Source of the DNA: Phycisphaerales bacterium | GTDB lineage: Bacteria; Planctomycetota; Phycisphaerae; UBA1845 | Direction: 5' to 3' | Length of the DNA: 64,000 bases | NCBI GenBank assembly: GCA_003597935.1 | Contig: QZJT01000059.1 | Span: 1-64,000, forward strand | Part shown: positions 1 through 49,784 of the stretch, piece after piece | Position numbering within the stretch: position 1 is the stretch's first letter | Layout: each line of letters begins with the position of its first letter | Notes under the pieces: generated by a model | The model's input: only the letters and a program-made list of their open reading frames with translations | Databases searched by the model: none | What the model was told of the DNA's origin: nothing | Made by a program: the position numbers and the translations under genes

Positions 1-1479
1 GTGCGCCTGACCTGCTTCGACAAGCGCGTCTGCATCGTCGAGCGTCATGAGCAGTTCGGCGGGCTGAACTCGTTTTATCGCCTCGACGGCCGGCAATTCG
101 ACGTCGGCCTGCACGCCCTGACCAACTACGTTCCCCCCGGCGTCCGTAGCGCTCCGCTGCCCAAGCTCTTGCGCCAGCTCCGCATCCCCCGCGATGAGTG
201 GGACCTGCACGAACAGACCTGGTCGGAGGTGCGCTTCCCGCACCATCGGCTGCGGTTCAGCAACGACGTTTCGTTGCTGGTGTCACAGGTGGCCGAGGTC
301 TTTCCCCGCCAGGCCGACGGATTCGTCCGGCTGGTCGAGTTCGCCCGCGGATACGACGACGTCTCGCTGCACGCGCCGTGGCGATCGACCCGGCAGGCAC
401 TGGCCGCCTTCCTGTCCGACCCGACCCTCATCGACATGATTCTGTGCCCGGTGATGTACTATGGCAGCGCCGAAGAGCACGACCTGGACCTCACCCACTT
501 CGTCACGATGTTCAAGAGCCTGTTCCTCCAGGGGCTGGCGCGCCCGCGCGGCGGCGTGCGCACGATCATCTCGTCGCTGGTGCGCAGGTTTCGCGCGCAG
601 GGCGGCCAGTTCCGGATGAAGTGCGGGGTCACGCGGCTGGTGGTGGACGACGGGCGGGTGCGGGCGGTGGCGCTGGAGACGGGAGAGGTGCTCACGGCGC
701 CGATCGTGTTCTCCTCGGCCGGCTACCACGAGACGATGGCGCTCTGCCCCGCCGGCGAGCCGCGGGCTTCAGCCCGCGCGGAGCCGCCGGCGCGCTGTGC
801 CAGCGAGCCGCGGGCTTCAGCCCGCGCGGAGCCGCCGGTCCGCACGGAGACCCCGTCGGCCGTCGAGGCTTCCACCGCACTCAGCGCTGGCACGCCGGGG
901 CAGCGGCAGGGCTCGGATGCCCCTCCCGACGTCCCCGGCGTACTCTCTTTCGTCGAATCCATCTGCGTGCTGAACTGCCTGCCGAAGACGCTCGGACACG
1001 AATCGACCATCACCTTCTTCAACCACGCGGATACGTTTGAGTACGCCTGCCCGGCCGAGCCGGTCGACGTTCGCAGCGGCGTCATCTGCTGCCCCAGCAA
1101 TTTCGAGCGCCATGACGACGTGGCGGAGGGCGTCATCCGGTTCACGTCGCTGGCGCGGGCGGACGCGTGGGAAAGCTTCCCCGAAGAGGAGTATCGCCGG
1201 CAGAAACAGGTCTGGCACGAGCGCGTCGTCGAGCAGGCGCTGCGGTACCTGCCGGACTTCCGCCCGCACGTGGTCTACACCGATACCTTTACACCCCGCA
1301 CGATCCGCCGCTACACCAGCCACCTCGGCGGCGCCGTCTACGGCGCCCCGCGGAAACGCCGCGACGGCCGCACGCCGATCGAGAACCTCTTCATCTGCGG
1401 GACGGACCAGGGGTTTCTCGGTATCATCGGAGCGTGCTTGAGTGGCATAACGGTGGCGAATCTGTATGGCTTGGAATAG
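1..1479 (+). CDS. FAD-dependent oxidoreductase, phytoene-desaturase (CrtI/COG1233)-like; 5' partial at window edge; carries an in-frame repeat-derived insert
   Basis: N-terminal FAD-binding region (CIVERHEQFGGLNSFYRLDGRQFDVGLH). C-terminal region is paralogous to the ORF at 2528-4003. Stop TAG at 1477-1479. Confidence 0.8.
   Translation: MRLTCFDKRVCIVERHEQFGGLNSFYRLDGRQFDVGLHALTNYVPPGVRSAPLPKLLRQLRIPRDEWDLHEQTWSEVRFPHHRLRFSNDVSLLVSQVAEVFPRQADGFVRLVEFARGYDDVSLHAPWRSTRQALAAFLSDPTLIDMILCPVMYYGSAEEHDLDLTHFVTMFKSLFLQGLARPRGGVRTIISSLVRRFRAQGGQFRMKCGVTRLVVDDGRVRAVALETGEVLTAPIVFSSAGYHETMALCPAGEPRASARAEPPARCASEPRASARAEPPVRTETPSAVEASTALSAGTPGQRQGSDAPPDVPGVLSFVESICVLNCLPKTLGHESTITFFNHADTFEYACPAEPVDVRSGVICCPSNFERHDDVAEGVIRFTSLARADAWESFPEEEYRRQKQVWHERVVEQALRYLPDFRPHVVYTDTFTPRTIRRYTSHLGGAVYGAPRKRRDGRTPIENLFICGTDQGFLGIIGACLSGITVANLYGLE
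757..838. repeat. Two tandem copies (48-bp period) of the GC-hairpin dispersed repeat, reverse orientation, inside the CDS. Translated in frame as [27 protein letters not shown].
   Basis: gagccgcgggcttcagcccgcgcggagccgccgg occurs at 757-790 and 805-838. The reading frame stays open. Oxidoreductase-like sequence resumes downstream. Confidence 0.8.
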
Positions 1480-1512
1480 CGAATAACGAACGTCGAATGT
1501 CGAATAACGGAT
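1480..1512. repeat. Heptamer-period array (GAATAGC GAATAAC GAACGTC GAATGTC GAATAAC) immediately 3' of the oxidoreductase stop
   Basis: Direct reading of the sequence; 7-nt periodicity GAANNNC. Confidence 0.6.
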
Positions 1513-1572
1513 GGAGGGCCGTCTGAGCGAGCCGCGTGGCTTTAGCCCGGGCGGAGTTTCAAGCGGGAGTGG

Positions 1573-2514
1573 ATGATCGAGAAAACGAGCATGACGGATC
1601 AACGGACACAGCATTCTGTGGCGGAACTCCCTCGACCGGACCACGGCGCGTCGAACGATGCACTCGCCCGCGCGCTGTCCATTACAATGCAGCGTCAATA
1701 TGACGTGGCGGCGCGATACATCGGCGCTGACGATGGACGCCGCCCCGGCGACGCATGGATCGAGGTCGATGGGCAGCGGATTCTCGTCGAGTTCTGTGCG
1801 TATGTTCAACAGGATGGTTTTCACGAGCTTGAGCGAGCCGACCGTGATGCGTTGGGCCACATTTCTCGAGCGTGCCTGGAGGCGAACTGCCCCATCATGG
1901 CACCACATATCAGCTGGCAATCGGAACCCAAGAAGATGTCGATCGGATTCTCCACGACCACGCCGCGGGTTCCGCGCGGCGCGGATCTCGAAGGTGTCTC
2001 GGTGGATTTCGTCAGACTCGCGAAGCGCGCAGCGGCGGACCCGCGGCTCCATGGTCATTCCATTAGCGTCTTCGACGAAGTACAAAGCGGCGCAGTCCGG
2101 GAATACCCCAACGGTGACGTGGGCCCTCCTGCATCCGTATACCCGCGCCTATCGCGATACTGTTTGGACGTTAGGCTCGATTCGTGGCAGCACACTGGCA
2201 GGCCAGCCTTCCGGAGCAACTTCAACTCCAGGATGCTGTACATAGATATGGAAGAACTGAATCGAAATGTCCAGTCCAAGGTTCACAAGATCGAGCAATA
2301 CCGAGCGAGCGCTGCCGGGTCAGCAGTTTGGCTTGTAGTTCATATGGACGGGTCACCCCCGTCGAGGAAATTGCCTGAGCCGCAACGCCCCAAGGCGATG
2401 GCATCAATTGCTTCCACAGCAGGAACACTCTTCGATCGCGTATTCTGGGCGGAGTGGTTGTTGAGCGAGGACGCAGCCCGCCTCTTCTGTGTCTTCGACC
2501 GCCGCGTGTGCTGA
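1573..2514 (+). CDS. Hypothetical protein (313 aa); noticeably lower GC than its neighbours; sits between two paralogous oxidoreductase genes
   Basis: Long ORF with ATG start and no recognisable motifs. Local GC is roughly 58-60% against about 68% in the flanks. Confidence 0.5.
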
Positions 2515-2527
2515 CGCAACGACGATC

Positions 2528-4003
2528 ATGATCGCCAACAACACCAAACTCCAACGCCGCCCCAACCGCCTTGACGGCTGCAGGGATTACTACGACGTCA
2601 TCGTCATCGGCAGCGGGCTGGCGGGGCTGACCGCCGCCAACTGCCTGGCCAAGTGCGACCGCAGCGTGCTGCTGGTCGAGCAGCACTACAACTTCGGCGG
2701 GATGGCCACCTGGTTCCGCCGGCCGGGCGGGTACATCTTCGACATCTCGCTGCACGGCTTTCCCGTCGGCATGATCAAAAGCTGCAAGCGCTACTGGACG
2801 CGCGAGATCGCCGACTCCATCCGCCAGCTCACGGGCATCCGTTTCGACAACCCGCAGTTCCAGCTCGACACCACGTTCGACCGCGATGACTTCACGCGCA
2901 TTCTCATAGAACGTTTCGGCATCACGGCGGAAACGGTCGAGTTCTTCTTCGAGACCGTCCGCAGGATGGACTTCTATGACGACCAGTCCATGACCACGCG
3001 CGAGCTGTTTCAACAGTTCTTCCCCGGACGGCTGGACGTGTGGCGGCTGCTGATGGAGCCGATCGCGTACGCCAACGGCTCGACCCTCGACGACCCGGCC
3101 ATCACCTACGGCATCGTGTTTTCCAACTTCATGAGCAAGGGCGTGTACATCTTCGGCGGCGGTACGGACAAGCTCATCCAGCAGATGAAGGAGGAGTTGA
3201 AACGCAACGGCGTCGATCTGCGGCGTCAGGTGGAGGTGGACGAGATCCTCATCGACCGCGGCCGCGCGGTCGGCGTCGTCGCCAACGGCCGGCGCATCCG
3301 CTGCGCGGCCGTACTGTCCAACGCGAACCTGAAGACGACCATCGAAAGAATGGTCGGCCCGCAGCACCTCGATCGCGAGTTCCTGGCCCAGGCCCGGGCG
3401 GTGCGCCTGAACAACAGCAGTTGTCAGGTCTATATCGGTATCCGCCCGGGCGAGTCGATCCCCTACGTCGGCGATCTGATCTTCAGCTCGACTCATCCGG
3501 TGTTCGATTCCGATGCCCTTTGCGCTAAGAACGTCACCAGCCGCACGTTTTCGATCTATTACCCCGACATGCGGCCGGAGCTGAACCGATACGCCGTGGT
3601 GTCATCTACGAACGCCAACTACCACGACTGGGCGGGGCTGTCGCGCGAGCAGTACGAACACGACAAGCAGGAGATGATCGAATCCACGCTAGCGGGGTTG
3701 GAGAAATACATCCCCGGCTGCCGCGACATCATCGACCACGTCGAGGCCGCCACGCCCGCGACCTTCGAGCACTACACCCGGCAGGCCGCCGGCGCCACCT
3801 TCGGCACCAAGTTCGAAGGCCTGCAAGTCAGCATGGACCTGCCCAGGCAGGTCCCCGGCCTCTTCCACGCAGGCTCCGTCGGCATCATCATGTCCGGCTG
3901 GCTGGGAGCGATCAATTACGGGGTCATTGTGTCGAACGAGGTGGACAGTTATCTGCTGTCCGAAGCGACGGCGAGAGCGGGGAGAATAGCGAACGGCGAA
4001 TAG
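2528..4003 (+). CDS. FAD-dependent oxidoreductase, phytoene-desaturase (CrtI/COG1233)-like; paralogue of the ORF at 1-1479
   Basis: [21 protein letters not shown] dinucleotide-binding motif. C-terminus [19 protein letters not shown] is like the CrtI family. The in-frame ATG at 2528 avoids overlap with the upstream gene; 2489 is an alternative start. Confidence 0.85.
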
Positions 4004-4017
4004 CGAATAACGAATGA
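3984..4017. repeat. Heptamer array (GAATAGC GAACGGC GAATAGC GAATAAC GAATGAA) that also encodes the last codons and the stop of the oxidoreductase
   Basis: Direct reading; same GAANNNC heptamer family as at 1480-1512. Confidence 0.6.
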
Positions 4018-4080
4018 AGAACACGGCGGTACTGTGAACGACAATCGGAGCCGCGACCGTGAGGGAGCGGCTTCTGTGAT

Positions 4081-4130
4081 CGAATGTCGAATGTCGAATG
4101 TCGAATGTCGAATGTCGAATGTCGAATGTC
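4081..4130. repeat. Perfect tandem heptamer array, (CGAATGT) x7
   Basis: cgaatgtcgaatgtcgaatgtcgaatgtcgaatgtcgaatgtcgaatgtcgaacgg. Confidence 0.9.
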
Positions 4131-4467
4131 GAACGGCGAGAGGTAACACGAATCCGCATCCGACGCCCCGGAGGGGCGCAGGAGTGTAGCCGCGGGTGGA
4201 GCGCAGCCGCCGACAGGCGGCGCAGCGGAACCCGTGGTAGCGATCTCCTTTCCCCCCCCGCCCCGGAGGGGCGGAGGCAGCGCACGGTAGCTGTACTGCG
4301 CACCGCGCGCCGCCTCGCACGCCGGGCGGAGGCGGCACGAGACGCGGATCGCGTCGCCGGCCCGAGCTGCGCACGAAACTCGGGGCCAGATGGACCCTGG
4401 GATTCACGGCGCTTCACGCCGTCGCAGCATCAGCGAGCCTCGCCCACACAGCCGCGTGCGCGACGCC

Positions 4468-6445: not shown

Positions 6446-7298
6446 CGCGGCGCAGCGTGACAGCCGCGAATGCGGCGCAGGGCGGCGGCCGCGGATGCGC
6501 AGGGCCGTAGCCGCGGATGCGCAGGGCCGCAGCCGCGAATTCGGCCCAGTGGTGTAGCCGCGAACGCGGCGCAGGGCTGTAGCCGCGGGTGAGTCCGTCT
6601 TCGGACGAACCCGCGGACAGCCGGACCCCGAAGACCCCGGGGAGCCGCGAAGCGGCGAAGGAACTCGCGGGAGCTACGTCGCTCAGAGGATGAAACGGGC
6701 CTCCGCGTGCGCACCGAAGGAGAACGCGAGGTTTCGACCCATACGGATGGTGCGATCCGTGCTGCGGCGCCGCCTCGCGCGCCGACGCTTCCGTCGCCGC
6801 TGCGCGGCTCAGCGGATGGGGGGGGCCGCACGATCCGTGGGTTCGCCCGCAGACGGGCTTCACCCGCGGCTACAGCCCTTGGGCCGCGTCGCGGCCGCAG
6901 AGCGCAGCGGGCGTCCCGTACGCCCTGACTCGCGGATATCTCCAGTCGCTGACTCGCGGATCTCCCCAACCCCTGACATGCGGATATCTTCGATTCCTGT
7001 CTCCCGTGGGCAGGCTCGGGCGCCCTATGGACTCCATGGACTTGATGGACCTGCTGGGAGTAGCCCCAGGCACGCTGTGGAGATCATCTCGTCGACGGTG
7101 ATCGTCTCTGCGAAGGGAGTTCCGCGCGGGCTGAAGCCTCGCGGCTCGCTGGGCAACCGCGGGGATGGTGTCACGCGCCTTCTCATGCCCTCCTACGGGG
7201 CGTGATTCTGCCGCCGCCCCGCGGTATGGTATTCCGCCGGCAGGCGGCCGGCGAAATCACCGCACGCGCCGTCGTGCCACGCCCGGCGAGTAAGACGC
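6446..7298. repeat. Repeat-dense 850-bp non-coding region. It holds about 25-bp GCGCAGGGC-CGTAGCCGCGGAT tandem units, a CTGACTCGCGGATATCTCC x3 array, ATGGAC nonamers, one GC-hairpin repeat copy (7121-7151) and a long-range inverted repeat (about 6576-6592 against 6845-6885).
   Basis: Direct reading. No ORF with protein-like composition; ORF-track translations here are low-complexity R/A/P strings. Confidence 0.6.
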
Positions 7299-9432: not shown

Positions 9433-9999
9433 ATGTTCGCTCGCCTGCTGCTTTTGTTCACCGTCGTTCCGTTGGTGGAGCTGATGATCCTGCTGCGGCT
9501 GGGCGAGTGGATGGGCTGGCAGTCCACGCTCGGCCTGGTGCTGCTGACCGGGGTGATCGGCGCGGCCCTGGCGCGGCGGGAGGGGTTTCGGACGCTGTCG
9601 CGGATTCGGGGGGAACTGTCGCGCGGGGCGACCCCGGCCGGTGAACTGGTGGACGCGGCCATGATCTTCGTAGCCGCCGCGCTGCTGGTCACGCCGGGCG
9701 TCCTGACGGACCTGGCCGGGTTCCTGCTCCTGATCCGGCCGTGCCGACGGGGTCTGCGGGCCTGGCTGGGGCGGCGCTTCGCAGAGCGAATCAGGATCGT
9801 ACACGAGAGCAGTGTCGCCCACAGCGGCGGGTACGGTAGCGGCGGGTTCGGCGACGGCGGCTACGGCAGCAGCGAGCACCACGGCGCTGGAGCGCATAGC
9901 GGCGAGCAACGCGCCGGCGGGCAGCAAGGGGGTAGGACGCCCCGCGTCGAGATCATCGATGTCGAGGCGACGTCAAATGGAGCAACGGACACCGGGTGA
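9433..9999 (+). CDS. fxsA: FxsA family cytoplasmic membrane protein
   Basis: MFARLLLLFTVVPLVELMILLRLGEWMGWQSTLGLVLLTGVIGAALARREG matches the FxsA N-terminal signature. Gly-rich C-terminal tail. Confidence 0.8.
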   Translation: MFARLLLLFTVVPLVELMILLRLGEWMGWQSTLGLVLLTGVIGAALARREGFRTLSRIRGELSRGATPAGELVDAAMIFVAAALLVTPGVLTDLAGFLLLIRPCRRGLRAWLGRRFAERIRIVHESSVAHSGGYGSGGFGDGGYGSSEHHGAGAHSGEQRAGGQQGGRTPRVEIIDVEATSNGATDTG

Positions 10000-10024
10000 A
10001 TGGCCAGCAGGGACCTAATGGACG

Positions 10025-10203
10025 GCATGGACTCTATGGACAGTATGGACTTCATGGACAATATGGACAATATGGACTTTATAGACTCAATGGACTGACT
10101 GGACGCCGTGACTCCTGTCCATCCTGTCCATCAAGTCCATACTGTCCATAGAGTCCATGCTGTCCACGAAGCTCATTCGGCCCATGCCGCCCATCACCCG
10201 GGC
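10025..10203. repeat. Nonamer array with an ATGGAC core: about 10 direct NNNATGGAC units followed by about 9 inverted NNNGTCCAT units, giving a 180-bp imperfect palindrome
   Basis: ggcatggactctatggacagtatggacttcatggacaatatggacaatatggac ... ctgtccatcctgtccatcaagtccatactgtccatagagtccatgctgtccac. Confidence 0.85.
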
Positions 10204-11107: not shown

Positions 11108-11229
11108 ACGAACGGGCGGCCTCGGAGGGCGCTCACGTCGGCTTGCGCGATTCGCAGTCTCCGCCAGAAGCAACCTCCGCGCGGCTTGGAGCCCGCGGCT
11201 TGCTCCCCGCCCATCATCGCGCAAGGCGT

Positions 11230-12840: not shown

Positions 12841-12850
12841 GTCTAGCCCA

Positions 12851-18527: not shown

Positions 18528-18783
18528 TCCGACGACCTCCCGCCCCGTTGCCCCCGGCCCGCGCGGACCACCGTCCACACCTTGCTCAAGTTTACACCGG
18601 GGGGCGCGGTGTGGCCATTACAAAGAACGGCCGGCGCGGATAACCATCGGAGGGAAAGGCCAGTGACAGCCGAGCGTCAGCCATAGGGCGCGCGTGTTCC
18701 CGCGCCGCCAGCGAGCCGCGGGTTTAACGCCCGCGCGGAAGTGCGGTCCGGGGCTCCGGCTGCCCGGTTCCCCGGCTGGCGGA

Positions 18784-25345: not shown

Positions 25346-25451
25346 CCCCTGGGACTGCCAGGCTCCAGCCTGGCGGCGCGGGGAAAAGCGTCGGCGGCTT
25401 GAAAACGCATCAACCGGGAAGCTCCGCGCGGGCTTCAAGCCCGCTGGTCGC
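25346..25451. repeat. Composite MITE-like dispersed element (CCTGGGACTGCCAGGCTCCAGCCTGGCGGC ... CTCCGCGCGGGCTTCAAGCCCGCTGG)
   Basis: Same two-part architecture as the copies at 38841, 39787 and 44049. Confidence 0.6.
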
Positions 25452-25472
25452 TTAGTGGAGCCCGCGGTTCCG

Positions 25473-38840: not shown

Positions 38841-38948
38841 CCTGGGATCGCCAGGCTCCAGCCTGGCGGCCGCACCAACGCGGCACCCACTCAGAGAACG
38901 GCATTCGAATGGGAGATCCACGCGGGCTTCAGGCCACGCGGCTTGCTT
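38841..38948. repeat. Composite MITE-like element copy, 12 bp from the vapC stop
   Basis: cctgggatcgccaggctccagcctggcggc ... cgcgggcttcaggccacgcggcttgc. Confidence 0.6.
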
Positions 38949-38959
38949 TGCACGGGCGA

Positions 38960-39760: not shown

Positions 39761-39922
39761 GGGTGCGTGACACAATCGGCGGTCCCCCTGGGATCGCCAG
39801 GTTCCAGCCTGGCGGCTGCGGGACTGTCGCGTCCGCTCAGAAAGCGGTACCCAAGTCGGGACTCCGCGCGGGCTGAAGCCACGCGGCTCGCTCAGATGCC
39901 CCGCCGATTGTGTCACGCACCC
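39761..39922. repeat. Composite MITE-like element (39787-39897) bounded by a perfect 22-bp inverted repeat GGGTGCGTGACACAATCGGCGG (39761-39782) / CCGCCGATTGTGTCACGCACCC (39901-39922)
   Basis: Exact reverse-complement match of the two 22-mers, read directly from the sequence. Confidence 0.7.
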
Positions 39923-40190
39923 AGGAAGCCACGCGTGCCCGGGCGGCCGAAAATGCCGGACTGGCGCTGCGCGTGTCTGCCGGCCGGCGCATGAGGGTCG
40001 ATCGACCATGCGGCGGCGCGACGCTTCCGTAGCCGGAGTGCGGAGGCCAGCGGTTCCGGCTCGGCAGCGCGGACTGCAAGCCAAGCTGCCTTGTAGCTGA
40101 ATGACCGGGCGGGATGCATGAGCGGCTCTCCGTCTGCTGCGTGTCCGGCATGAGGAACGATCGGGGGAAACCGCGGCTACGGCTCGCCCA

Positions 40191-40529
40191 TCAAAGGTAC
40201 TCTACCTGCCCCGCCAGTTCGCCGGGAGTGAGTACTTCGTAAACGAGAATCAACTGCCGGATGATCTGACCGACCGTGCGGTCCGTCTTCTTGCAGAAGG
40301 CGATGCCGGGATGGTCAGTGCCCGAAATGTGCGGGTCGAGGAAGTCGACGTCGTGGGTTACGAGAACCCGTTGCTCATTGCGGGCAAACGCCAACTGGAC
40401 TTCGTCGGACGCGGTTCGCAATCCCGACGCGACGGTCGTCGAGACGTCAATCCCGTATCGGCGCAAACCGTGAGCCACATCAGGGTCCACGTTTTCGTCC
40501 AGCGGAAATCGGATTCGATCACTCACCAT
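40191..40529 (-). CDS. DUF5615 family PIN-like nuclease (putative toxin)
   Basis: MVSDRIRFPLDENVDPDVAHGLRRYGIDVSTT...VLVTHDVDF is a typical DUF5615 pattern; 112 aa. Confidence 0.75.
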   Translation of the reverse strand: MVSDRIRFPLDENVDPDVAHGLRRYGIDVSTTVASGLRTASDEVQLAFARNEQRVLVTHDVDFLDPHISGTDHPGIAFCKKTDRTVGQIIRQLILVYEVLTPGELAGQVEYL

Positions 40530-40838
40530 TCAGCGTCCGCAATCTGTCCCGCAGCAGCGAGGGGTTGCTGCGGGAAAACGCCTCGGCGACGGCCTCATCG
40601 CTGGCGATCCCGCGGTCGATCTCGTCGCGATGATCGAAGTAATAAGCCAGGGCTGCATGGAGGCTTGCCAGCGTGAGGTCAAACTTGCCGGCGATTTCTT
40701 CAAGCGACTGGCCCAGCCGCAGATGCATGAGGACGACGTCGGCGACCGTGATGCGCGTGCCAGCGATCCGCGGACGACCGCCACGCACGCCGGCGCTCTG
40801 CTCGATGTGCCGATCCAGTGCCAGATTCGAGACCGTCA
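40519..40838 (-). CDS. DUF433 domain protein (putative antitoxin partner of DUF5615)
   Basis: SAGVRGGRPRIAGTRITVADVVLMHLRLGQSLEEIAGKFDLTLASLHAALAYY is a DUF433-like signature. 11-bp overlap with the DUF5615 gene. Confidence 0.75.
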
Positions 40839-40977
40839 TGGCAAGCGTTCTCCCATTCAGCGACAGCATTTGTCCGGCGGGACTGACCAGATACGAACCA
40901 CTGCCACATCCGAACCGTGCAACTTCAGAGTCACAGCATTCATGCGGCGGCGCACCGGTGACAAACCGGTGCCACAC

Positions 40978-43194
<2,217 letters not shown>

Positions 43195-43198
43195 TCAG

Positions 43199-43402
43199 TG
43201 TGGCACCGGCTTCCAGCCGGTGGACCCCCGCACGAATGCGGGGGCACTGCATGTGGCACCGGCTTCCAGCCGGTGTCTTCGTGTGGCACCGGCTTCCAGC
43301 CGGCGTCCTCGTGTGGCACCGGCTTCCAGCCGGCGTCCTCGTGTGGCACCGGCTTCCAGCCGGCGTCCTCGTGTGGCACCGGCTTCCAGCCGGTGTCTTC
43401 GC
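43199..43402. repeat. Tandem array of a 23-nt hairpin repeat GTGGCACCGGCTTCCAGCCGGYG with 7-nt linkers (30-bp period, 6 copies) plus one 30-bp variant unit with a CCCCCGCACGAATGCGGGGG hairpin
   Basis: Direct reading. Each unit is self-complementary (CACCGGCT-TCC-AGCCGGTG). Lies in the leader between the TPP riboswitch and thiC. Confidence 0.9.
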
Positions 43403-43799
43403 CCTGAAGGGGCGGCGGCTCGTTGCCACGGGTGGAGCGAAGCGGGACCCGTGGAAAACGGCGCCCCCACGCCCTCCCGCCCCGAGGGGGCGGAGGAGGC
43501 CGCGCAGTATCGGTGTCGACGCCGTCAGGCATAGCTTCCGAAACACAGAGTGGCTGATGGCTGAACCATGCGCGGCGGACCGCTCCATCATGACCTGCGG
43601 GAACAAAAGCGGCGAGCGCCTCCTCCGCCCCATCCGGGGCGGCTGATTGCAATACCCGGCGATCCACGGGTTGCGCTTCGCTTCACCCGTGGCTACACTC
43701 CTCGGCCCCTTCGGGGCCCGCAGATTCGACACTCGGATTGAGCGGGAGACTCGAGCCGGCGCGGCGGCGACGCGCCGGCACGGGCAGGTGCGGCGAGGC

Positions 43800-43910
43800 G
43801 TCGCTTCCCTACGCAGGCTTCAGCGCCGCGGCCGCGCCGCGACGCCCTCCTGATCAGGTTCCAAGGCTCATCTCTCAGCCCGTCAACCCGGCGGGCACAC
43901 CTAGCGACAC
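43800..43910 (-). promoter_or_regulatory. TPP (THI-box) riboswitch aptamer upstream of thiC
   Basis: Minus-strand RNA reads ...GGUGUGCCCGCCGGGUUGACGGGCUGAGAGAUGAGCCUUGGAACCUGAUCAGG...CCUGCGUAGGGAAGCGA. It has the conserved GGGUGCCC-like, CUGAGA, ACCUGAUC and GCGUAGGGAA blocks in the right order, with an extended GC-rich P5 insert. Confidence 0.8.
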
Positions 43911-44048
43911 CCTTGTCTTAGCGCGGCGGCCTGCTTTCGTCAAGCGCCTACGCAGACGCCCGATCCGTCAATCGGCGGCCGGGATCGTCGCTGCGCATCG
44001 GCGGGCTTCCGAGACGCGGTAACCGTGCGGTGTATGTGTTCCGGCGCG

Positions 44049-44162
44049 CCCCTGGGACCGTCAGGCTCCAGCCTGGCTGCCGGCGAGCAAACCGCCGCGA
44101 TGGAGATCTCACGAAACGCACGCGGCGAACACAGCGCGGGGAGGGGCGACGCGGCTCGCAGA
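44049..44162. repeat. Composite MITE-like element copy (variant)
   Basis: cctgggaccgtcaggctccagcctggctgccggc ... gacgcggctcgca. Confidence 0.5.
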
Positions 44163-44216
44163 GAGTTGCCGCCGATGGTGTCAGGCGGGCTTTCCGTTGA
44201 GTTTGCTTCCCTCTAA

Positions 44217-44762
44217 TCACGCGGAGTCCGACCCATCCGCGTCCGCGCCGTTGTCGGCGTCCATCGGTTTGCGGTTCAGGGAATCCAGCGGCGGCCAGTC
44301 GAACGGCGTCCCGCACTCGGGGCACCTCGGCACGGTCAAGCCGCGGAGTGAATAGCCGCATTTGCGACACAGGCCGACCTTCACCTCGATCCGTCGCTGC
44401 CAGTCGTAGCTGATCGCCGCCAAAACACGGCACGCCAGCCCCGCGAACACGACCATCACGATGCAGGACACGGTGACCCACCAGTCGTCCGCGCGGTCGC
44501 GAGGATACTGCAGAAAGGCGCCGCCTCGCTCTCGGACGAGAAGCGGTATGAACACCAGCCCGCCGATGCATCCGTAGATGAAGAACAACGGGCGGCAGTC
44601 ACAGGCGGCGCCGACCCGCCACGCGCCTCCGAGCAGGATCGCGACAGCCGCCGCCGCCAGGAACGGACCGACGGGCTCTCGCGACAGGTTCGGAACGGCG
44701 AGAGACACAGCCATGCAGACGGCGACGAGCAGGAGTGCCAGGTACGCGATCGCTCGCTTCAT
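44217..44762 (-). CDS. Membrane protein with CxC-RPLFFIYGC motif and C-terminal zinc ribbon (paralogue A)
   Basis: Three TM helices; ACDCRPLFFIYGC; CRKCGYSLRGLTVPRCPECGTPFD. Tandem paralogue of the 44783-45301 protein. Confidence 0.6.
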   Translation of the reverse strand: MKRAIAYLALLLVAVCMAVSLAVPNLSREPVGPFLAAAAVAILLGGAWRVGAACDCRPLFFIYGCIGGLVFIPLLVRERGGAFLQYPRDRADDWWVTVSCIVMVVFAGLACRVLAAISYDWQRRIEVKVGLCRKCGYSLRGLTVPRCPECGTPFDWPPLDSLNRKPMDADNGADADGSDSA

Positions 44763-44782
44763 TGTCGGACTCGTCTGACGAA

Positions 44783-45301
44783 TCAGGTTCCGCCGCCGCG
44801 GCGTGCTGGGCGTGTTGATCCGATGGCTTCCGGCGGGGCCGGCTCCGTCTGTCGATCGAACGCCCTCCCGCACTCCGGACACCGCGGCACGGTCAAGCCG
44901 TACAGCAGATAACCGCACCCGAGGCACCGATCGGGCGCCGAGGCGTGCGGGCCGTGCCGCTCGTAGCTGTACATCGCCAGTTCCCGGCAGAACACGGCCG
45001 ACAGCAGCAATGCCCCGACGCGCGAGCCGATCAGCCAGCAGTCTTCCAGCGTGTTCGCGCAATATCCGCGCGGGAGGGTCAAGCGCAGGAAGAAAAAGCC
45101 GCAGAGGCAGCCATAGATGAAGAAGAGGGGGCGGCAGTTGCAGCGGGCGCCGGCGAACCAGGCTCCGGCAATGACGAAGCCGAAGGCCAGGAAGGTCGCG
45201 GTCCGGTCGACGCGGCCGGGATGCAGGGAGGGCAATGCCGCAAGCACCGCGATGATTTCGGCGAACAAGCAGAGCCCGAGAATGTTGATCGCGCGTGCCA
45301 T
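44783..45301 (-). CDS. Membrane protein with CxC-RPLFFIYGC motif and C-terminal zinc ribbon (paralogue B)
   Basis: ARCNCRPLFFIYGC; CLGCGYLLYGLTVPRCPECGRAFD. Confidence 0.6.
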   Translation of the reverse strand: MARAINILGLCLFAEIIAVLAALPSLHPGRVDRTATFLAFGFVIAGAWFAGARCNCRPLFFIYGCLCGFFFLRLTLPRGYCANTLEDCWLIGSRVGALLLSAVFCRELAMYSYERHGPHASAPDRCLGCGYLLYGLTVPRCPECGRAFDRQTEPAPPEAIGSTRPARRGGGT

Positions 45302-45493
45302 CGGATGTTCACCGCCGTACGTTGCCGCCTGCCCGCGGGGTCAGCGCTGACGACTCATCCCACAGGATTATTCGCTTCACGCCCGGCCGGGACAATCGCA
45401 GCGGCCGCAATGCTCACGAGCAGTGGCACTTTACTGGCACTCGGGGGGCACTGCCGAATCTGGGACGGACGCCTTCCAGCGGCCATAGGTACA

Positions 45494-46402
45494 ATGATGG
45501 CCATCATGACCGAGGCAGGACAGCCGGTGTCGGGGCCGGACGGCGTGGCGGCCCAACAGGGGCGCGACGGTTCGCCCGCGCAGGTTGCAGCGCTGGACGC
45601 ATCGCCCGGTGCAGCGCCGGATGCAGCGGCCGCTGCGGTGCCGGGGCGCCGAGTGTTCGCCGCCCACGAATCCGCCCCGCCCGATCTCGCGAACATTCGG
45701 CGGGTGCATGAGGGCGAGGCGTCGGCGCCGTCGGATGCCGCGCTGGTCCACCGCGTCCTAACGGGCGAGCAGAACGCCTTCGCCGTTCTGTACGACCGAT
45801 ACGCCCGGCTGGTTCGGGCGATCTGTTTCGGCGCCACGCGGGATTTCCACGCCGCCGCGGACCTGACCCAGGAGGTCTTCCTGCGTGCCTACCGGAACCT
45901 CGCCCGGCTGGACGATGGCGAGCAGTTCGGCCTGTGGCTGACCGGCATCGCCCGGCGGGCGTGCAGCGAATGGCGGCGCGGCCGGGTGCGGGATGCTCGC
46001 AGGATCGCCGGCCTTATCCGCCGAAAGGCAGGCGAAGACGCGCGGCATCATGGGATGTCCGATGGTGCGAATTACGAGCGTCCGTGGGGAGACGGCGCGG
46101 ACAGCGCGGCGCGGGATGACGGCGGCGCGCAGAGGCGCCGCGGCGATTCCGGTGCCGGCATGCACGATGACGGCGACCCACCGTCGGCGCCTGCCGAAGC
46201 GAATGAAACCCGGGAACAGTTGCTCCGCCGCGTGGCGGAGCTTCCCGAGAACGAGCGCCTGGCGACGCACGCCTTTTACCTGATGGGCATGAACGCGACA
46301 GACGCCGGACGAGTGACGGGGCTGAGCCGCTCCGCCCTGTACCGCGTGCTGGCGGCGGCGAGACAACGGTTGCGACAGGCGTTGCGCGACAACGGCGTCT
46401 GA
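45494..46402 (+). CDS. ECF (group IV) sigma-70 factor with an N-terminal extension and a long acidic linker between regions 2 and 4
   Basis: Region 2 (LVHRVLTGEQNAFAVLYDRYARLVRAICFGATRDFHAAADLTQEVFLRAY) and region 4 (LPENERLATHAFYLMGMNATDAGRVTGLSRSALYRVLAAARQRLR). Start uncertain. Confidence 0.8.
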   Translation: MMAIMTEAGQPVSGPDGVAAQQGRDGSPAQVAALDASPGAAPDAAAAAVPGRRVFAAHESAPPDLANIRRVHEGEASAPSDAALVHRVLTGEQNAFAVLYDRYARLVRAICFGATRDFHAAADLTQEVFLRAYRNLARLDDGEQFGLWLTGIARRACSEWRRGRVRDARRIAGLIRRKAGEDARHHGMSDGANYERPWGDGADSAARDDGGAQRRRGDSGAGMHDDGDPPSAPAEANETREQLLRRVAELPENERLATHAFYLMGMNATDAGRVTGLSRSALYRVLAAARQRLRQALRDNGV

Positions 46403-46541
46403 ACACGCTGGATCACCGTGCTCCACGTGCAGCCGCGTCGAAACCAGAGAATCCGCGCGGGCTGAAGCCCGCGGCTCGCTGGCGGCGCCGGATGGCGGTC
46501 AGTGACTTGGAAGTGACGAGCGGAATCGACGAGGTGGTTCC

Positions 46542-48137
46542 ATGAAGTGTCCGGACACTCAACAGTGGATCCTGCTGACGATGGGCGCGTTCAACGACCG
46601 TCGGACCGCGGAGCTGGAAGCCCATGCGCAGGGCTGCCCTGCGTGCCGGCGCGAGCTTGAACTCGCCCGCCGTGAGCACGCCGACCTCGAAGCCGCGCAT
46701 CGTCTGTTCGAGCGCCGCCACGACGCCGGCCGCGAGCGGTTGATGGCAAAGTTGGCGGACGCAGTCGTGATGGACACTGCATCGCAGTCGTCAGGCACGT
46801 CCGCGCCGCCGGTTCGCCGAATTCCCTTTTTCAACAACCTCAAGATTGGAGATTTCCTCATGAACCTTTCTGTAAGACGTCCCGGCCGGATCGCGGTGAT
46901 TCTCGCCCCGGCCGCGTGCATTATCGCAGCGATCGCGGTGTACAGCGGGATGGGCGACGGCCGCGCGTTCGCCGACGCCATCGCCCGGCTGCGTGAGGCC
47001 GACACCGTCGCCTGCCACGTGCGGATGACGATGCACGCGCTGCTGGAGCCGGCGGCGGGGGCCGATGTGAACCAGCCCGGCGCGGCGCAGATCACGGAGA
47101 AACACGAGCAGACGCTCGTTCGCGACGAACAACTCTACCTCAGTGCCGCCGGCGGGGTCCGCCGCGACGCGTTCGAGAACGACAAACCCGCCACCACCGT
47201 GTACGTCGCGCCGAACGCCGTACGTACGTGGATCATCAATCATGTCGACTCGACGTGGCAGGAGTTCGGCGATGAGGCGACGGCGGCGATGCCGGAGGAA
47301 CTGAAGGACGCCATGCGAGATCTGGTCGCCGACCGCCCGATGGTCGAACTGCACTTCGGTGGCGCGCTGGATGACACGGCGCAGTTGATCGAGGGGCTGC
47401 GCACCCTGGCGGGCGACGCCGATCGCCCGCTGGGCGAGCGCCGGATCGACGGCGTATCCGCCACGGGCTACGAAATCGACGGTGCTCGCGTCGGCTTCGG
47501 CCCGCCGCTCTACAGCGAGTCGGACGACAACCGGGCGGAGGTCTGGATCGATTTGCGTCAGGACCTGCCCGTGCTGATCGTGCTGCACTTCGTGTCGCGC
47601 GTGAACGCCGTGGCCGGCATGCCGATCAACGCGACCTACACCGTCACCACCGAGTACAGCCATTTCCAGATCGACCCGCCGCTGGCCGCCGACTGGTTCG
47701 ACCCGGTGATCCCCGTCGGTTACTCGCAGAAGCAGGATCAGGTGGTGAAGATAGCAGGCAGCCTCAATGAAGTGGCCTTTCTGGAAGCCCTGCGCGCGTT
47801 CGGCGAGCAGGCAGGGCGATACCCCAAAAGCCTGGAGACGATGGACGTAATGTACGAGGTCAGCTACCTGATCGGCTCGATGCAGGCCCGGCGACTGGCG
47901 GCCACCAGCAAGGGCGAACCGACCGACAATCTGCCCGACCACCGCGCCGTCGGCCAGGCGGTGCAGGGGCTGGCGTATTACACCGTGCTCGAAGCCGCCG
48001 GCCGCCGGCCGGAGTATTTCGGCACAAGCGTCACCCCCGGCGACACCGCAGCGCTGCTGCTGCGCTGGACCCTGGAAGACGGCCGCACCCGCGTGGTCTA
48101 CGGCGACCTGCGGGTGGATGACGTGGACGCCGGCTGA
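46542..48137 (+). CDS. Anti-sigma factor (zinc-finger ZAS-like N-terminus, single TM, large periplasmic domain)
   Basis: HAQGCPACRRELE motif, TM helix IAVILAPAACIIAAIAVY. Directly downstream of the ECF sigma gene. Confidence 0.7.
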   Translation: MKCPDTQQWILLTMGAFNDRRTAELEAHAQGCPACRRELELARREHADLEAAHRLFERRHDAGRERLMAKLADAVVMDTASQSSGTSAPPVRRIPFFNNLKIGDFLMNLSVRRPGRIAVILAPAACIIAAIAVYSGMGDGRAFADAIARLREADTVACHVRMTMHALLEPAAGADVNQPGAAQITEKHEQTLVRDEQLYLSAAGGVRRDAFENDKPATTVYVAPNAVRTWIINHVDSTWQEFGDEATAAMPEELKDAMRDLVADRPMVELHFGGALDDTAQLIEGLRTLAGDADRPLGERRIDGVSATGYEIDGARVGFGPPLYSESDDNRAEVWIDLRQDLPVLIVLHFVSRVNAVAGMPINATYTVTTEYSHFQIDPPLAADWFDPVIPVGYSQKQDQVVKIAGSLNEVAFLEALRAFGEQAGRYPKSLETMDVMYEVSYLIGSMQARRLAATSKGEPTDNLPDHRAVGQAVQGLAYYTVLEAAGRRPEYFGTSVTPGDTAALLLRWTLEDGRTRVVYGDLRVDDVDAG

Positions 48138-48495
48138 CGACCTCCGGACGCGCTCCAGCGGGGTCAATACGTCACGAAGTCACGCGGCGAGATACTGCGT
48201 GACCGCGGGATGGCGGCCTCCCGCGTTCCGGCGGGCCCGTCGGCGGGCAGGGGGCCTGTTCGGTCCAAGCCGGGCTCCGACTCCGCCGAGGCGACGAATT
48301 CTCCGAGGTCTTCAATCCCGGGTGCCTGCGGATTCCACGAATCCGGCGCGCTGCCGTCCGAAGACGCGCAATGGGGCTAATTGTCCAATGATGCGAGATC
48401 ATCGAGGGTTTGGACGCATGGGGCCTTGCGGGCATTCACGGGCGCTCGCCTTTGGTCGCGTTAACTTCTCTTGCAAAATGCAGTACAATTGCAGC

Positions 48496-49218
48496 ATGAC
48501 TACGGTGGCGAGGACGCAGATCAGTCGGCCGCTTCAGGTGCGGGTTTCCGAGGCCCAATACGCACTCTTCAAGCGCGCGGCGGAGCGAGACGGGCGAACG
48601 CTCTCGGGTTGGGCGCGTCACCGGCTGTGTCGACTGGCGGCGGCGGAGTTGAGTGTTGATACCTCGTGTATGACTGCCGGCACGGACGGTGCCAGCGAAG
48701 TACAGGTCATCAGATACCAGGTTGCGGGACCCACCGAAAGATTCCAGGCTGAAGGTTCCGCCGAACCGCTCCGTAGCGGAATGCCGTCGCAAGATTATTG
48801 CCCGGGACGCGGGTGCAGAATGACGGTGATCCAGGATCCCTACGCTTTGGCATTGGTCGTTGCCGATCATGTCCATCGTGACTCCGGGACAGGTAAGATG
48901 TCCATCTTGGGGACCTTTTCGGTCATCTGGGCGAAAGGCTTCCCGGCGGCGCATGGTCCGATTTTCGTTTATTTCGTGCTCACGGACGGACGTGAGAAGT
49001 GAAACTGTGAGCTGAGCCTGGTTACGGTCGATGAGGATCTGACGCTTGCCCAGATGAGTGCGGAAATCGAGTTTCCTGACCCTCACGCGGTAGTGGAGGG
49101 GGTAGTCGAGATTCGAGGCGTTGTTTTCCCCGCGCCCGGAGAGTATCGGCTGCAGTTGTCTGCAGGTGGTACGCCCTTGTTGGAAAGACGGATTCTCGTC
49201 AAACAGGTGTCTGAATGA
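48496..49218 (+). pseudogene. ORF with an N-terminal ribbon-helix-helix-like segment, interrupted by a single in-frame TGA (49000-49002), after which the same frame stays open for 72 more codons
   Basis: MTTVARTQISRPLQVRVSEAQYALFKRAAERDGRTLSGWARHRL is a CopG/Arc-like RHH. Frame 1 reads ...FVYFVLTDGREK-TGA-NCELSLVTVDEDLTLAQMSAEIEFP...LLERRILVKQVSE-TGA. The region has lower GC (about 58%). Confidence 0.45.
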
Positions 49219-49437
49219 CTCCCATGAAGACGAAGACAGCACCAGACAGGACGCTGACCGCCACGCTTGGCGGTCCGAAGGCGTCGGGAGCCGTACCGAC
49301 CGTTGGAACGGCCTCCGCCCCGTTCGACGGGATTCGCGACGTGATCAGCGACAAGCCCCTGCGGCGGCCCAACCGGAACAAGCCTTGTGCCCCCCGCTGA
49401 CTGCCCGGGGATCGTGGGTCTGTCGCCTGGCTCGAAC

Positions 49438-49521
49438 TGCCGGAGGAGGGACTCGAACCCTCACTGAGTTGCCCCAACGGGATTTTGAATCCCGCGCGTC
49501 TGCCAATTCCGCCACTCCGGC
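49438..49521 (-). tRNA. tRNA-Leu (anticodon CAA), type II with long variable arm
   Basis: GCCGGAGTGGCGGAATTGGCAGACGCGCGGGATTCAAAATCCCGTTGGGGCAACTCAGTGAGGGTTCGAGTCCCTCCTCCGGCA. It has a 7-bp acceptor stem, a GTTCGAGTCC T-loop, anticodon loop TTCAAAA and a Leu-type D-arm TGGCGGAATTGG. No encoded CCA. Confidence 0.9.
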
Positions 49522-49685
49522 GCGGCGCTACCGCGAGACGATTCAGGGGCGACCCGCGGTCGCGGCGACATGATAACGGCGCATCCGCCGGACTCCAATC
49601 CCGCCCGGTTGTCTGACAGCGCAACCGCAGAGGGCGCAGCGCGGGCAGTGCCCGCGCTGTGCCTAAAGCGACGTTCACCGGGAGA

Positions 49686-49784
49686 CGCCGCGCGGGCTTC
49701 AAGCCCGCCGCTCGCTGCTGCTGCGAACCGTACGCCCGTCTCAGGCGGAGCGTCCGCGCGGGGCTGAAGCCCGCGGCTCGCTGG
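49686..49784. repeat. Two copies of the GC-hairpin dispersed repeat (49686-49717 and 49752-49784)
   Basis: cgccgcgcgggcttcaagcccgccgctcgctg; gtccgcgcggggctgaagcccgcggctcgctgg. Confidence 0.8.

What the first reader, a model, noticed from the sequence alone, without database searches (positions are those of the whole stretch)
757..49784. Dispersed GC-hairpin repeat family (REP-like), at least 10 copies in 64 kb
The motif TCCGCGCGGGCTGAAGCCCGCGGCTCGCTGG has a 7-10-bp GC stem (CGCGGGC/GCCCGCG) and a TGAA loop. It recurs at 757-790, 805-838, 7121-7151, 18708-18738 (variant), 25422-25451, 38921-38948, 39862-39895, 42417-42475, 46453-46483, 49686-49717 and 49752-49784, in both orientations. Most copies are intergenic. 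This density is typical of REP/BIME-type elements but the consensus is unlike the enterobacterial REP. It may mark a lineage-specific mobile or structural RNA element (terminator, mRNA stabiliser or recombination site).
Basis: seen in the sequence. Interest (0 to 1): 0.6.

Follow-up and report, generated by a model that had tools for sequence, protein, structure and literature searches.

The report
REP-like hairpin repeats invading genes
A roughly 40-base GC-rich hairpin is scattered through this Phycisphaerales (planctomycete) genome like the REP/REPIN mini-transposons of other bacteria, and several copies sit in frame inside working genes such as thiC, adding extra protein loops, which is unusual but already described in other bacteria.

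Summary
The window holds 13 full copies and one half copy of a ~37-45-nt unit, GGnGAnTCCGCGCGGGCTGAAGCCCGCGGCTCGCTGG. Flanks are unrelated, so this is not a segmental duplication.

The exact 31-mer occurs in 29 places in four Phycisphaerae/Planctomycetota MAGs. The 24-nt core occurs in at least 120 metagenome contigs.

In related genomes, adjacent copies are overwhelmingly inverted doublets (23 of 33). Intergenic copies lie mostly downstream of genes and avoid divergent promoter regions. These are REP/REPIN/BIME hallmarks.

One gene is thiC and the other an FAD oxidoreductase. Both insertions are absent from the closest homologues. dnaE and a transporter carry similar inserts in a sister MAG.

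The family has no GTAG or CGTC tag, and no RAYT gene was found beside any copy. No copy has a T-tract terminator, and none matches an Rfam family.

Verdict: a new, untagged member of the REP/REPIN kind that also inserts inside genes, as Rickettsia RPEs do. The mobilising enzyme is inferred, not shown.

The parts
745..789 (-). REP-like copy 1, inside the FAD/amine-oxidase-type oxidoreductase gene (window 1-1479, +), in frame; encodes [10 protein letters not shown]
   Evidence: nhmmer E=4.5e-9; translation and GC3 frame plot; insert absent from homologues
794..837 (-). REP-like copy 2, in tandem with copy 1 (48-nt period), same gene and frame; encodes [10 protein letters not shown]
   Evidence: nhmmer E=4e-11
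1518..1564 (-).
   Evidence: nhmmer E=8e-10; no copy at the orthologous intergenic site of MAG CAZYLK01 (L151)
7113..7155 (+). REP-like copy upstream of the ABC-transporter ATPase gene (start about 7202-7230); followed by a GGTGTCACGC box
   Evidence: nhmmer E=1e-10
11167..11206 (+).
   Evidence: nhmmer E=1e-7; gene map
18702..18746 (-). REP-like copy (loop variant GTTAA), 37 nt after the stop codon of a GNAT acetyltransferase gene
   Evidence: nhmmer E=8e-10
25415..25461 (+). REP-like copy (loop TTCAA), 11 nt after the stop codon of the RNase III gene (25473-26201, -); part of a composite with a second hairpin at 25346-25384
   Evidence: nhmmer E=2e-9
38909..38954 (+). Diverged REP-like copy (loop TTCA) in a composite with hairpin 38839-38877, next to a PIN-domain toxin gene
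   Evidence: nhmmer E=5e-8
39856..39897 (+). REP-like copy inside a 181-nt composite (39741-39921) bounded by perfect 22-bp inverted repeats
   Evidence: nhmmer E=5e-10; inverted repeats; DNA fold z=-7.6
42413..42480 (+). REP-like copy plus tandem half copy, inside thiC (40978-43161, -), in frame; encodes [17 protein letters not shown] within an insertion of about 45-53 aa
   Evidence: nhmmer E=3e-12; translation; insertion absent from PDB ThiC 3EPM and from the 15 closest homologues
46444..46489 (+). REP-like copy 52 nt upstream of the ATG of gene 46542-48137
   Evidence: nhmmer E=6.5e-12
49680..49724 (+). REP-like copy (loop TTCAA) between tRNA-Leu (49438-49521, -) and the moaD/moaE fusion gene
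   Evidence: nhmmer E=2.5e-8
49746..49790 (+). REP-like copy, in tandem with the previous one (66-nt period)
   Evidence: nhmmer E=6.5e-9

Best explanation
This is a lineage-specific family of REP/REPIN-type miniature palindromic elements of Phycisphaerae (phylum Planctomycetota).

**The unit.** It is about 37-45 nt long. It has a semi-conserved 5' foot (GGnGAn), then TCC, a 7-bp GC stem (CGCGGGC / GCCCGCG), a TGAA loop and a GCTCGCTGG tail.

**How it most likely works (inferred).** It is non-autonomous DNA that spreads within genomes. By analogy with REPs and REPINs, it probably moves as a single-stranded hairpin handled in trans by a Y1 HUH tyrosine transposase. This step is inferred, not shown.

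**Where copies end up (shown).**
- Copies accumulate where they are tolerated: mainly a few tens of bases downstream of stop codons, singly, in tandem, or as inverted doublets.
- Copies that land in surface loops or linkers of proteins survive only when they keep the reading frame. They are then translated as short hydrophilic peptides ([30 protein letters not shown]). This has lengthened ThiC and an FAD oxidoreductase in this genome, and DnaE and an APC transporter in a sister MAG.

**Possible secondary effect (inferred).** Transcribed copies must form a stable GC hairpin that could protect mRNA 3' ends. That would be a by-product of the element, not its reason for existing.
For: **Repeat family**
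- 13 copies plus a half copy in 64 kb, against about 1 expected.
- Information content falls to background outside positions -10 to +29, so flanks are unrelated.

**Lineage distribution**
- The exact 31-mer occurs 29 times in 4 Phycisphaerae/Planctomycetota MAGs out of 185,579 species genomes.
- In all, 213 copies were found in 984 kb of held DNA.

**REPIN-like doublets**
- Of 33 adjacent pairs, 23 are (-,+), 1 is (+,-) and 9 are tandem.
- One spacer class is 25-35 nt with partly conserved sequence. Two pairs directly abut or slightly overlap.

**Position relative to genes**
- 32 tandem, 24 convergent and 5 divergent intergenic sites. Expectation by intergenic length is 53%, 24% and 23%.
- The median distance from the nearest stop codon is 49 nt.

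**Mobility, shown by presence/absence at orthologous sites**
- The thiC insertion is absent from the 15 closest homologues and from 3EPM.
- A different ThiC carries the same 24-nt core at another site.
- The oxidoreductase loop holds this family in the window but a different hairpin family in the CAZYLK orthologue. That orthologous locus also has no copy at the site matching 1518-1564.
- The DnaE insert is absent from 12 homologues.
- The APC-transporter insert is about 65 aa longer than solved homologues.

**Translation through the copies**
- The same frame and high GC3 continue on both sides, with no stop codons.

**Precedent**
- Intragenic REPs and REP dimers, including dimers whose spacers have similar length but different sequence, are described for Opitutus terrae, Rickettsia conorii and others (PMC3733652).
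Against: - No RAYT or other transposase gene lies beside any of the 213 copies in 984 kb. The only Y1 transposase seen (L005 19-483) passes the IS200 model (59.2 bits, cut-off 55). It fails the RAYT model (23.9 bits, cut-off 80), and it is not flanked by this repeat.
- The unit lacks the GTAG or CGTC tag that defines the two described REP superfamilies (PMC3733652).
- No transposition event, target-site rule or excision product has been observed.
- The window itself has only single and tandem copies, no inverted doublets.
- In MAG CAZYLK01 many doublets have spacers of 103-114 nt with unrelated sequences. The simple REPIN model does not explain this.
- Single intragenic copies are all in one orientation, 12 of 12. 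Neutral insertion followed by frame filtering does not predict this.
Confidence: 0.75

Rival explanations
1. The hairpins are primarily functional RNA elements, either factor-independent terminators or 3'-end mRNA stabilisers. On this view they are kept at gene ends by selection and are not mobile DNA.
For: - 56 of 61 classifiable intergenic copies have a gene end on at least one side.
- The median distance from a stop codon is 49 nt.
- In the window, five copies lie 11-59 nt after stop codons.
- The hairpin is stable (-15 kcal/mol).
Against: - No T-tract follows the stem, and none of the copies in the scanned region (window 38000-50500) is called terminator-like.
- Copies occur in both orientations and also upstream of genes (7113, 46444, 49746).
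- Copies occur inside thiC, dnaE and other coding sequences.
- Near-identical sequence in hundreds of unrelated contexts, together with presence/absence at orthologous sites, points to copying rather than convergence.
- No Rfam family matches.
Confidence: 0.12
2. The copies are binding sites for a chromosomal protein, for example gyrase, a nucleoid protein or a recombinase, as proposed for enterobacterial BIMEs. On this view they are maintained for chromosome structure.
For: - The core is strongly conserved, with a 24-nt stretch identical in genomes of 58-71% GC.
- The doublet geometry is regular.
Against: - No protein partner is known or testable here.
- Uneven presence among related genomes and at orthologous sites argues against a general chromosomal role.
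- The same argument is made for REPs in PMC3733652.
Confidence: 0.06
3. The repeat is really a protein-coding module, a short peptide repeat such as [10 protein letters not shown], and the non-coding copies are decayed gene fragments.
For: Intragenic copies are read in a strongly preferred orientation and frame: 8 as SEPRASARA, 4 as RAAGFSPRG, and 0 in the third open antisense frame or in the sense orientation.
Against: - About 77-93% of copies are outside coding sequence.
- Identity is at the DNA level, including third codon positions and the palindromic symmetry.
- Host proteins are unrelated: ThiC, DnaE, an oxidoreductase, a transporter and a cytochrome c.
- The inserts fall in loops that are short in homologues.
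Confidence: 0.03
4. The pattern is an assembly or binning artefact of metagenome-assembled genomes, for example chimeric joins at repeats.
For: All sequences involved come from MAGs or metagenome contigs.
Against: - The same unit appears in independent assemblies from many studies and assemblers.
- Copies are embedded in continuous, in-frame genes whose flanks align with homologues on both sides.
Confidence: 0.02

Closest known systems
REP / REPIN / BIME elements of Proteobacteria and other phyla (GTAG- and CGTC-tagged REPs; Di Nocera et al. 2013, PMC3733652; REPINs of Bertels and Rainey 2011, cited in PMC6006769)
   Same: - A 20-40-nt imperfect GC palindrome with unpaired ends.
- Hundreds of dispersed copies with unrelated flanks.
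- Single, tandem and especially inverted-doublet arrangements.
- Enrichment downstream of genes and between convergent genes.
- Occasional intragenic copies, including in DNA replication genes.
- Several families coexisting in one genome.
   Different: - No GTAG or CGTC tag. The unpaired ends are TCC with a GGnGA foot on one side and GCTCGCTGG on the other.
- No RAYT gene (REPtron) was found next to any copy.
- The host is class Phycisphaerae. I found no description of REPs for this class in the searchable library.
- One genome has doublets with spacers of about 105 nt and unrelated sequence.
Rickettsia palindromic elements (RPE), including RPE-4 and RPE-6, which PMC3733652 equates with CGTC-type REPs
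   Same: - Palindromic repeats are found in frame inside genes for functional, even essential, proteins. They are translated as extra loops.
- The same elements also occur between genes.
- The reading frame used is strongly preferred.
   Different: - The sequence is unrelated, and the host is not an obligate intracellular alpha-proteobacterium but an environmental, GC-rich lineage known only from MAGs and metagenome contigs.
- RPE-1 is longer (about 100-150 nt).
- Here 5 of the 6 frames are open, so the frame bias cannot be explained by stop codons.
Hairpin repeats flanking class 3 Y1 HUH transposase genes of Planctomycetes and Acidobacteria (Quentin et al. 2018, PMC6006769)
   Same: - Reported principally in Planctomycetes, along with Acidobacteria and Proteobacteria.
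- High-copy hairpins with a 5' four-base foot (CnGA there, GnGA-like here).
- A proposed REPtron-like relationship.
   Different: - No class 3 gene was found in the DNA held here.
- The foot differs from CnGA and is only 64-82% conserved.
- The link is a lead from the literature, not a test.
MITEs (for example Correia/NEMIS, ERIC, RUP)
   Same: They are small and non-autonomous, can be transcribed, and sometimes sit inside genes. One window copy lies within a 181-nt composite bounded by 22-bp terminal inverted repeats (39741-39921).
   Different: The basic unit is only about 40 nt. It has no terminal inverted repeats beyond its own hairpin and no recognisable target-site duplication. MITEs are 70-300 nt and derive from insertion-sequence ends.

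Membership tests
REP / REPIN | Short (20-40 nt) imperfect palindrome able to form a stem-loop | tested here: met
   7-bp GC stem and 4-nt loop, -15 kcal/mol. The stem is paired in 96% of cells over 33 distinct copies.
REP / REPIN | High copy number, dispersed, with unrelated flanks | tested here: met
   13 copies in 64 kb. The flank information content is about 0. The exact 31-mer occurs 29 times in 4 MAGs, and the core occurs in at least 120 metagenome contigs. The whole-genome copy number of the window's own organism could not be counted.
REP / REPIN | Predominantly extragenic, enriched downstream of genes and between convergent genes | tested here: met
   10 of 13 window copies are intergenic. 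The counts are 32 tandem, 24 convergent and 5 divergent, against a length expectation of 53%, 24% and 23%.
REP / REPIN | Inverted doublets (REPINs) as a frequent unit | tested here: met
   23 of 33 adjacent pairs are (-,+). A class with 25-35-nt spacers has partly conserved spacer sequence. None of these doublets is in the window itself.
REP / REPIN | Conserved GTAG (or CGTC) tetranucleotide tag at one end | tested here: not met
   The consensus GGnGAnTCCGCGCGGGCTGAAGCCCGCGGCTCGCTGG has neither tag on either strand. A separate GTAG-type family does exist in the window, at 6447-6591.
REP / REPIN | A cognate RAYT (Y1 HUH transposase) gene flanked by copies of the repeat (REPtron) | tested here: inconclusive
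   tblastn over 984 kb around 213 copies found only one Y1 gene (L005). It is of IS200 type and is not flanked by this repeat.
Rickettsia palindromic elements (RPE) | In-frame insertion in genes for functional proteins, absent from orthologues | tested here: met
   thiC, oxidoreductase, dnaE and an APC transporter.
Rickettsia palindromic elements (RPE) | Sequence homology to RPE families, in a Rickettsia host | tested here: not met
   The host is Phycisphaerales. The consensus lacks the CGTC tag of RPE-4 and RPE-6 (PMC3733652).
MITE | 70-300 nt with 15-30-bp terminal inverted repeats and a target-site duplication | tested here: not met
   The unit is about 40 nt with sharp ends and no separate inverted repeats. 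No target duplication was recognisable. Only the composite at 39741-39921 has 22-bp inverted repeats.
Intrinsic (Rho-independent) terminator | GC hairpin followed by a T/U tract, oriented with the upstream gene | tested here: not met
   The tail is GCTCGCTGG. No copy in the scanned region (window 38000-50500) is among the terminator-like sites. Copies occur in both orientations and inside genes.
Known structured RNA families (Rfam 15) | A match to a curated covariance model | tested here: not met
   Only a tRNA and a sub-threshold TPP riboswitch were found. No copy matched any model.

The most novel reading that the evidence does not exclude
This may be a third, untagged REP superfamily, widespread in environmental Phycisphaerae. 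On this reading it is mobilised by an enzyme other than the canonical RAYT, perhaps the planctomycete class 3 Y1 protein or something unknown. It would also act as a regular source of new protein loops, inserting in one preferred orientation and frame, even in essential enzymes (ThiC, DnaE). In one lineage it would travel as an inverted pair carrying about 105 nt of arbitrary 'cargo' sequence. That would make it a free-living counterpart of the Rickettsia RPE phenomenon, with a new mechanism.
Probability: 0.2. Interest if true: 0.6.

Novelty: new member of a known kind. Interest (0 to 1): 0.4.

Why it matters
REP/REPIN elements are best known from Proteobacteria. Here a clear, abundant family appears in Phycisphaerae, a class known mostly from metagenomes.

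The family lacks the tags used to classify REPs and has no transposase in view. It therefore widens the range of this element type and gives a concrete sequence with which to hunt for its mobiliser.

The in-frame copies in thiC, dnaE and other genes are natural insertion experiments. They show which protein loops tolerate 10-100 extra residues.

They also matter for annotation. They inflate protein lengths, break pairwise alignments, and can seed spurious ORFs and contig breaks in MAG assemblies.

None of this overturns current understanding, because intragenic REPs have been described before.

Tried and rejected
- **Segmental duplication.** Rejected: flank information content is about 0.
- **Covariation support for the hairpin.** Not obtainable. 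The copies are too similar, with one compensatory change, and the shuffle controls are not exceeded.
- **Decayed partner copies beside the window's intragenic copies.** I looked for these to test whether the copies are remnants of doublets. No convincing remnant was found.
- **Homology or structure in the 103-114-nt doublet spacers.** Smith-Waterman scores match those of shuffled sequences, and fold z-scores are near 0.
- **REPtron search.**
  - The gene between the inverted copies in L016 is a cytochrome c, not a transposase.
  - The L009 copies follow tandemly duplicated genes.
  - The L005 protein is an IS200-type Y1 transposase, below the RAYT cut-off.
- **Pfam scan of poorly called window regions for a transposase.** It found a PIN toxin, a DUF5615 PIN-like protein and zinc-ribbon-like ORFs, but no transposase.
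- **Rfam.** Searches at the gathering threshold and at E<=1 gave no match at any copy.
- **Terminator scan.** None of the copies in the scanned region (window 38000-50500) was called.
- **Replication-strand explanation for the orientation bias of intragenic copies.** Not supported cleanly. Copies after stop codons are 48:25 antisense, but the doublet geometry contributes to that ratio.

Full report

Yes. The 18-nt core with up to 3 mismatches gives 11 strand-matches at 7 loci, against 0.89 expected, and none of 100 shuffles reached 11.

A profile built from the window copies finds 13 full copies with E-values from 3e-12 to 1e-7:
- 745-789(-), 794-837(-), 1518-1564(-), 7113-7155(+), 11167-11206(+)
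- 18702-18746(-), 25415-25461(+), 38909-38954(+), 39856-39897(+)
- 42413-42458(+), 46444-46489(+), 49680-49724(+), 49746-49790(+)

There is also a tandem half copy at 42456-42480.

An information-content profile over 61 anchored copies from the window and related genomes defines the unit as GGnGAnTCCGCGCGGGCTGAAGCCCGCGGCTCGCTGG(cgg). The left edge is sharp and the right edge fades. The flanks carry no information. The copies are therefore not pieces of one duplicated segment.

The 7-bp stem with a TGAA loop folds at about -15 kcal/mol. It is paired in 96% of cells across 33 distinct copies. There is too little variation for covariation statistics, with only one compensatory G-C to A-T change. 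Three window copies have a flipped or extended loop (TTCA or TTCAA) while their flanks keep the same orientation.

**2. Which organism, and how widespread is the family?**

The window is about 68% GC. Its ThiC protein is identical to a protein annotated in a Phycisphaerales MAG, on a 134-kb contig.

- The exact 31-mer occurs in 29 stretches of the 185,579-species genome collection. All of them are in four Phycisphaerae/Planctomycetota MAGs, and 24 are in one Phycisphaeraceae MAG, CAZYLK01.
These contigs have 58-71% GC.

**3. Arrangement**

Of 33 adjacent pairs less than 600 nt apart, 23 are in the (-,+) orientation, with the TCC ends facing inward. One is (+,-) and nine are tandem.

Spacers fall into two classes:
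- **25-35 nt**, with partly conserved sequence, found on metagenome contigs. This is a typical REPIN-like unit of about 90 nt. Two further pairs directly abut or slightly overlap.
- **103-114 nt**, found in MAG CAZYLK01. [quoted passage not shown]

The window itself has only single and tandem copies.

I called genes with a simple GC3-based method. Classifiable intergenic copies lie at 32 tandem, 24 convergent and 5 divergent sites. Intergenic length predicts 53%, 24% and 23%. The median distance to the nearest stop codon is 49 nt.

In the window, five copies lie 11-59 nt after stop codons and three lie upstream of genes. No copy is followed by a T-tract, and none in the scanned region (38000-50500) is called terminator-like. 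None matches an Rfam family.

**4.

*In the window:*
- **Oxidoreductase gene.** Copies 745-789 and 794-837 lie inside the + strand gene 1-1479, an amine-oxidase-type FAD oxidoreductase. The frame and high GC3 continue on both sides. The product reads ...[29 protein letters not shown]....
- **thiC.** Copy 42413-42480 lies inside thiC on the - strand. It reads ...[17 protein letters not shown]....
  - Against Caulobacter ThiC (PDB 3EPM), window residues 218-278 replace chain residues 158-165.
  - The insertion is absent from the 15 closest homologues, which are 74-83% identical.
  - Another Phycisphaerae ThiC (P0037, from a 58% GC genome) carries the same 24-nt core at a different site.
- **A hotspot loop.** The oxidoreductase loop is short in most homologues. 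In several Phycisphaerales proteins it is expanded by different repeat-derived peptides.
  - In the CAZYLK01 orthologue, the loop holds two copies of another hairpin family. That family forms a six-unit tandem array at window 43198-43431 and encodes CGTGFQPV.
  - The CAZYLK01 locus also has no copy at the site orthologous to 1518-1564.

*In CAZYLK01:*
- **dnaE** carries an insertion of about 100 aa, absent from 12 homologues that are 67-77% identical. It consists of an inverted doublet with a 109-nt spacer plus a third hairpin.
- **An APC transporter** carries an insert of about 65 aa that is also an inverted doublet.

*How common this is:*
- A strict test required open, coding-like flanks of 150 nt on both sides. 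By this test, 12 of 183 evaluable copies are single intragenic copies. A lenient count gives 50 of 213.
- All 12 strict cases are antisense to the consensus as written. Eight are read as SEPRASARA and four as RAAGFSPRG, although five of the six frames are stop-free. I cannot explain this bias.
- Copies after stop codons are also 48:25 antisense. The doublet geometry contributes to that ratio.

**5. Most likely mechanism**

*Shown here:*
- It is a dispersed, near-identical palindromic repeat.
- Orthologous sites differ in presence or absence.
- It forms REPIN-like doublets.
- It is enriched at gene ends.
- Intragenic copies are in frame and stop-free, with coding-like composition continuing on both sides.

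*Inferred:*
- The family is a non-autonomous mobile element.
- It is copied through a single-stranded hairpin intermediate by a Y1 HUH transposase acting in trans, as for REPs and RAYTs.
- Insertions survive where they are harmless: in 3' untranslated regions, and in protein loops when the frame is kept.

I did not find the enzyme. In 984 kb, the only Y1 gene is L005 19-483. It passes the IS200 model (59.2 bits, cut-off 55) but not the RAYT model (23.9 bits, cut-off 80). It is preceded by other small hairpins, not by this repeat. Since such genes are usually present once per genome and only fragments were available, this test is inconclusive.

Quentin et al. (PMC6006769) describe class 3 Y1 genes, mainly in Planctomycetes, flanked by high-copy hairpins with a CnGA foot. 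The semi-conserved GGnGA foot here may be a counterpart. That is a lead from the literature, not a test.

**6. Comparison with what is known**

Di Nocera et al. (PMC3733652) sort REPs into GTAG- and CGTC-tagged superfamilies. They report:
- predominance of one doublet type;
- spacers of 20-100 bp that are sometimes 'different in sequence but similar in length';
- location between unidirectional and convergent genes;
- intragenic REPs, including dimers, in replication and repair genes, most often in Opitutus terrae and Rickettsia conorii.

This family shares all of those behaviours. It lacks either tag, and no REPtron was found. It behaves like Rickettsia RPEs inside genes but is unrelated to them in sequence and host.

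I found no description of REP-type repeats for Phycisphaerae in the searchable library. I therefore file it as a new member of a known kind, not as a member of the GTAG or CGTC superfamilies.

**7. Verdict**

The terminator idea is unsupported as the primary role. The main addition is the set of in-frame intragenic copies and the wide environmental distribution.

Interest is moderate (0.4). This is a clean, previously undescribed REP-type family in a poorly studied class. Three features remain unexplained:
- the orientation and frame bias of intragenic copies;
- the doublets with about 105-nt spacers of unrelated sequence;
- the missing mobiliser.

The general phenomenon, however, is already known.

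Noticed in passing
window 43198-43431 (and L151 about 1030-1100): Six tandem 30-nt hairpin units (GTGTGGCACCGGCTTCCAGCCGGTG) lie in the leader of thiC. The same family sits in frame, encoding CGTGFQPV twice, in the CAZYLK01 orthologue of the window's oxidoreductase. It occupies the very loop where the window carries the REP-like copies.
   Followed up: partly
window 43789-43912 (-): A full-length but sub-threshold TPP riboswitch match (45.7 bits against a gathering score of 54.3, E=1.7e-6). It lies about 630 nt upstream of the thiC start, with the hairpin array between aptamer and gene.
   Followed up: no
window 39741-39921; also 38817-38960, 25346-25481, 44049-44189, 7121-7179: A composite element of about 180 nt. 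Perfect 22-bp inverted repeats (GGGTGCGTGACACAATCGGCGG) enclose a second hairpin family (CGCCAGGyTCCAGCCTGGCG) and one REP-like copy. The DNA fold z-score is -7.6. Two such composites bracket a PIN-toxin/antitoxin pair (38960-39654).
   Followed up: partly
window 6447-6591, 6860-6895, 4165-4207, 43675-43717: A separate repeat family with a GTAG motif next to a short hairpin (TGTAGCCGCGAAyGCGGCGCAGGGC). It occurs in tandem arrays and as inverted partners, and looks like a canonical GTAG-tagged REP.
   Followed up: no
window 9999-10194 and 12648-12857: Arrays of a 9-nt unit (ATGGACAGC) are each followed by arrays of its complement (GTCCAT...). They form long imperfect palindromes (70-nt arms, 81% complementary) on both sides of the genes at 10112-12756.
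   Followed up: no
window 1474-1513, 3977-4135, 36517-36641, 49826-49885, 52904-53121; L151 1664-1866: Many short tandem arrays lie at gene boundaries: heptamers GAATGTC/GAATAGC, AGGTTGA and TTCGACC, a 20-mer repeated 4.3 times, and a 54-mer. The GAATAGC-type arrays are kept at the orthologous intergenic site in MAG CAZYLK01.
   Followed up: no
window 44217-45340 (-): Two adjacent, diverged copies (75-81% identity over the repeated stretches) of an ORF with a weak double-zinc-ribbon match. They lie in a region of atypical codon-position composition.
   Followed up: no
L005 19-483 (-) and 540-780: An IS200-type Y1 transposase gene in MAG CAZYLK01, preceded by five different small hairpins with TGAA/TTCA-type loops. 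It is a possible source of hairpin-processing activity in this lineage.
   Followed up: partly
proteins P0042, P0171, P0188, P0197: Other Phycisphaerae ThiC and oxidoreductase homologues carry different duplicated peptide motifs in variable loops and linkers (SEPGACRAG, SRRLKPAA, DRFLTGAAR). This suggests that further hairpin-repeat families are translated in these genomes.
   Followed up: no
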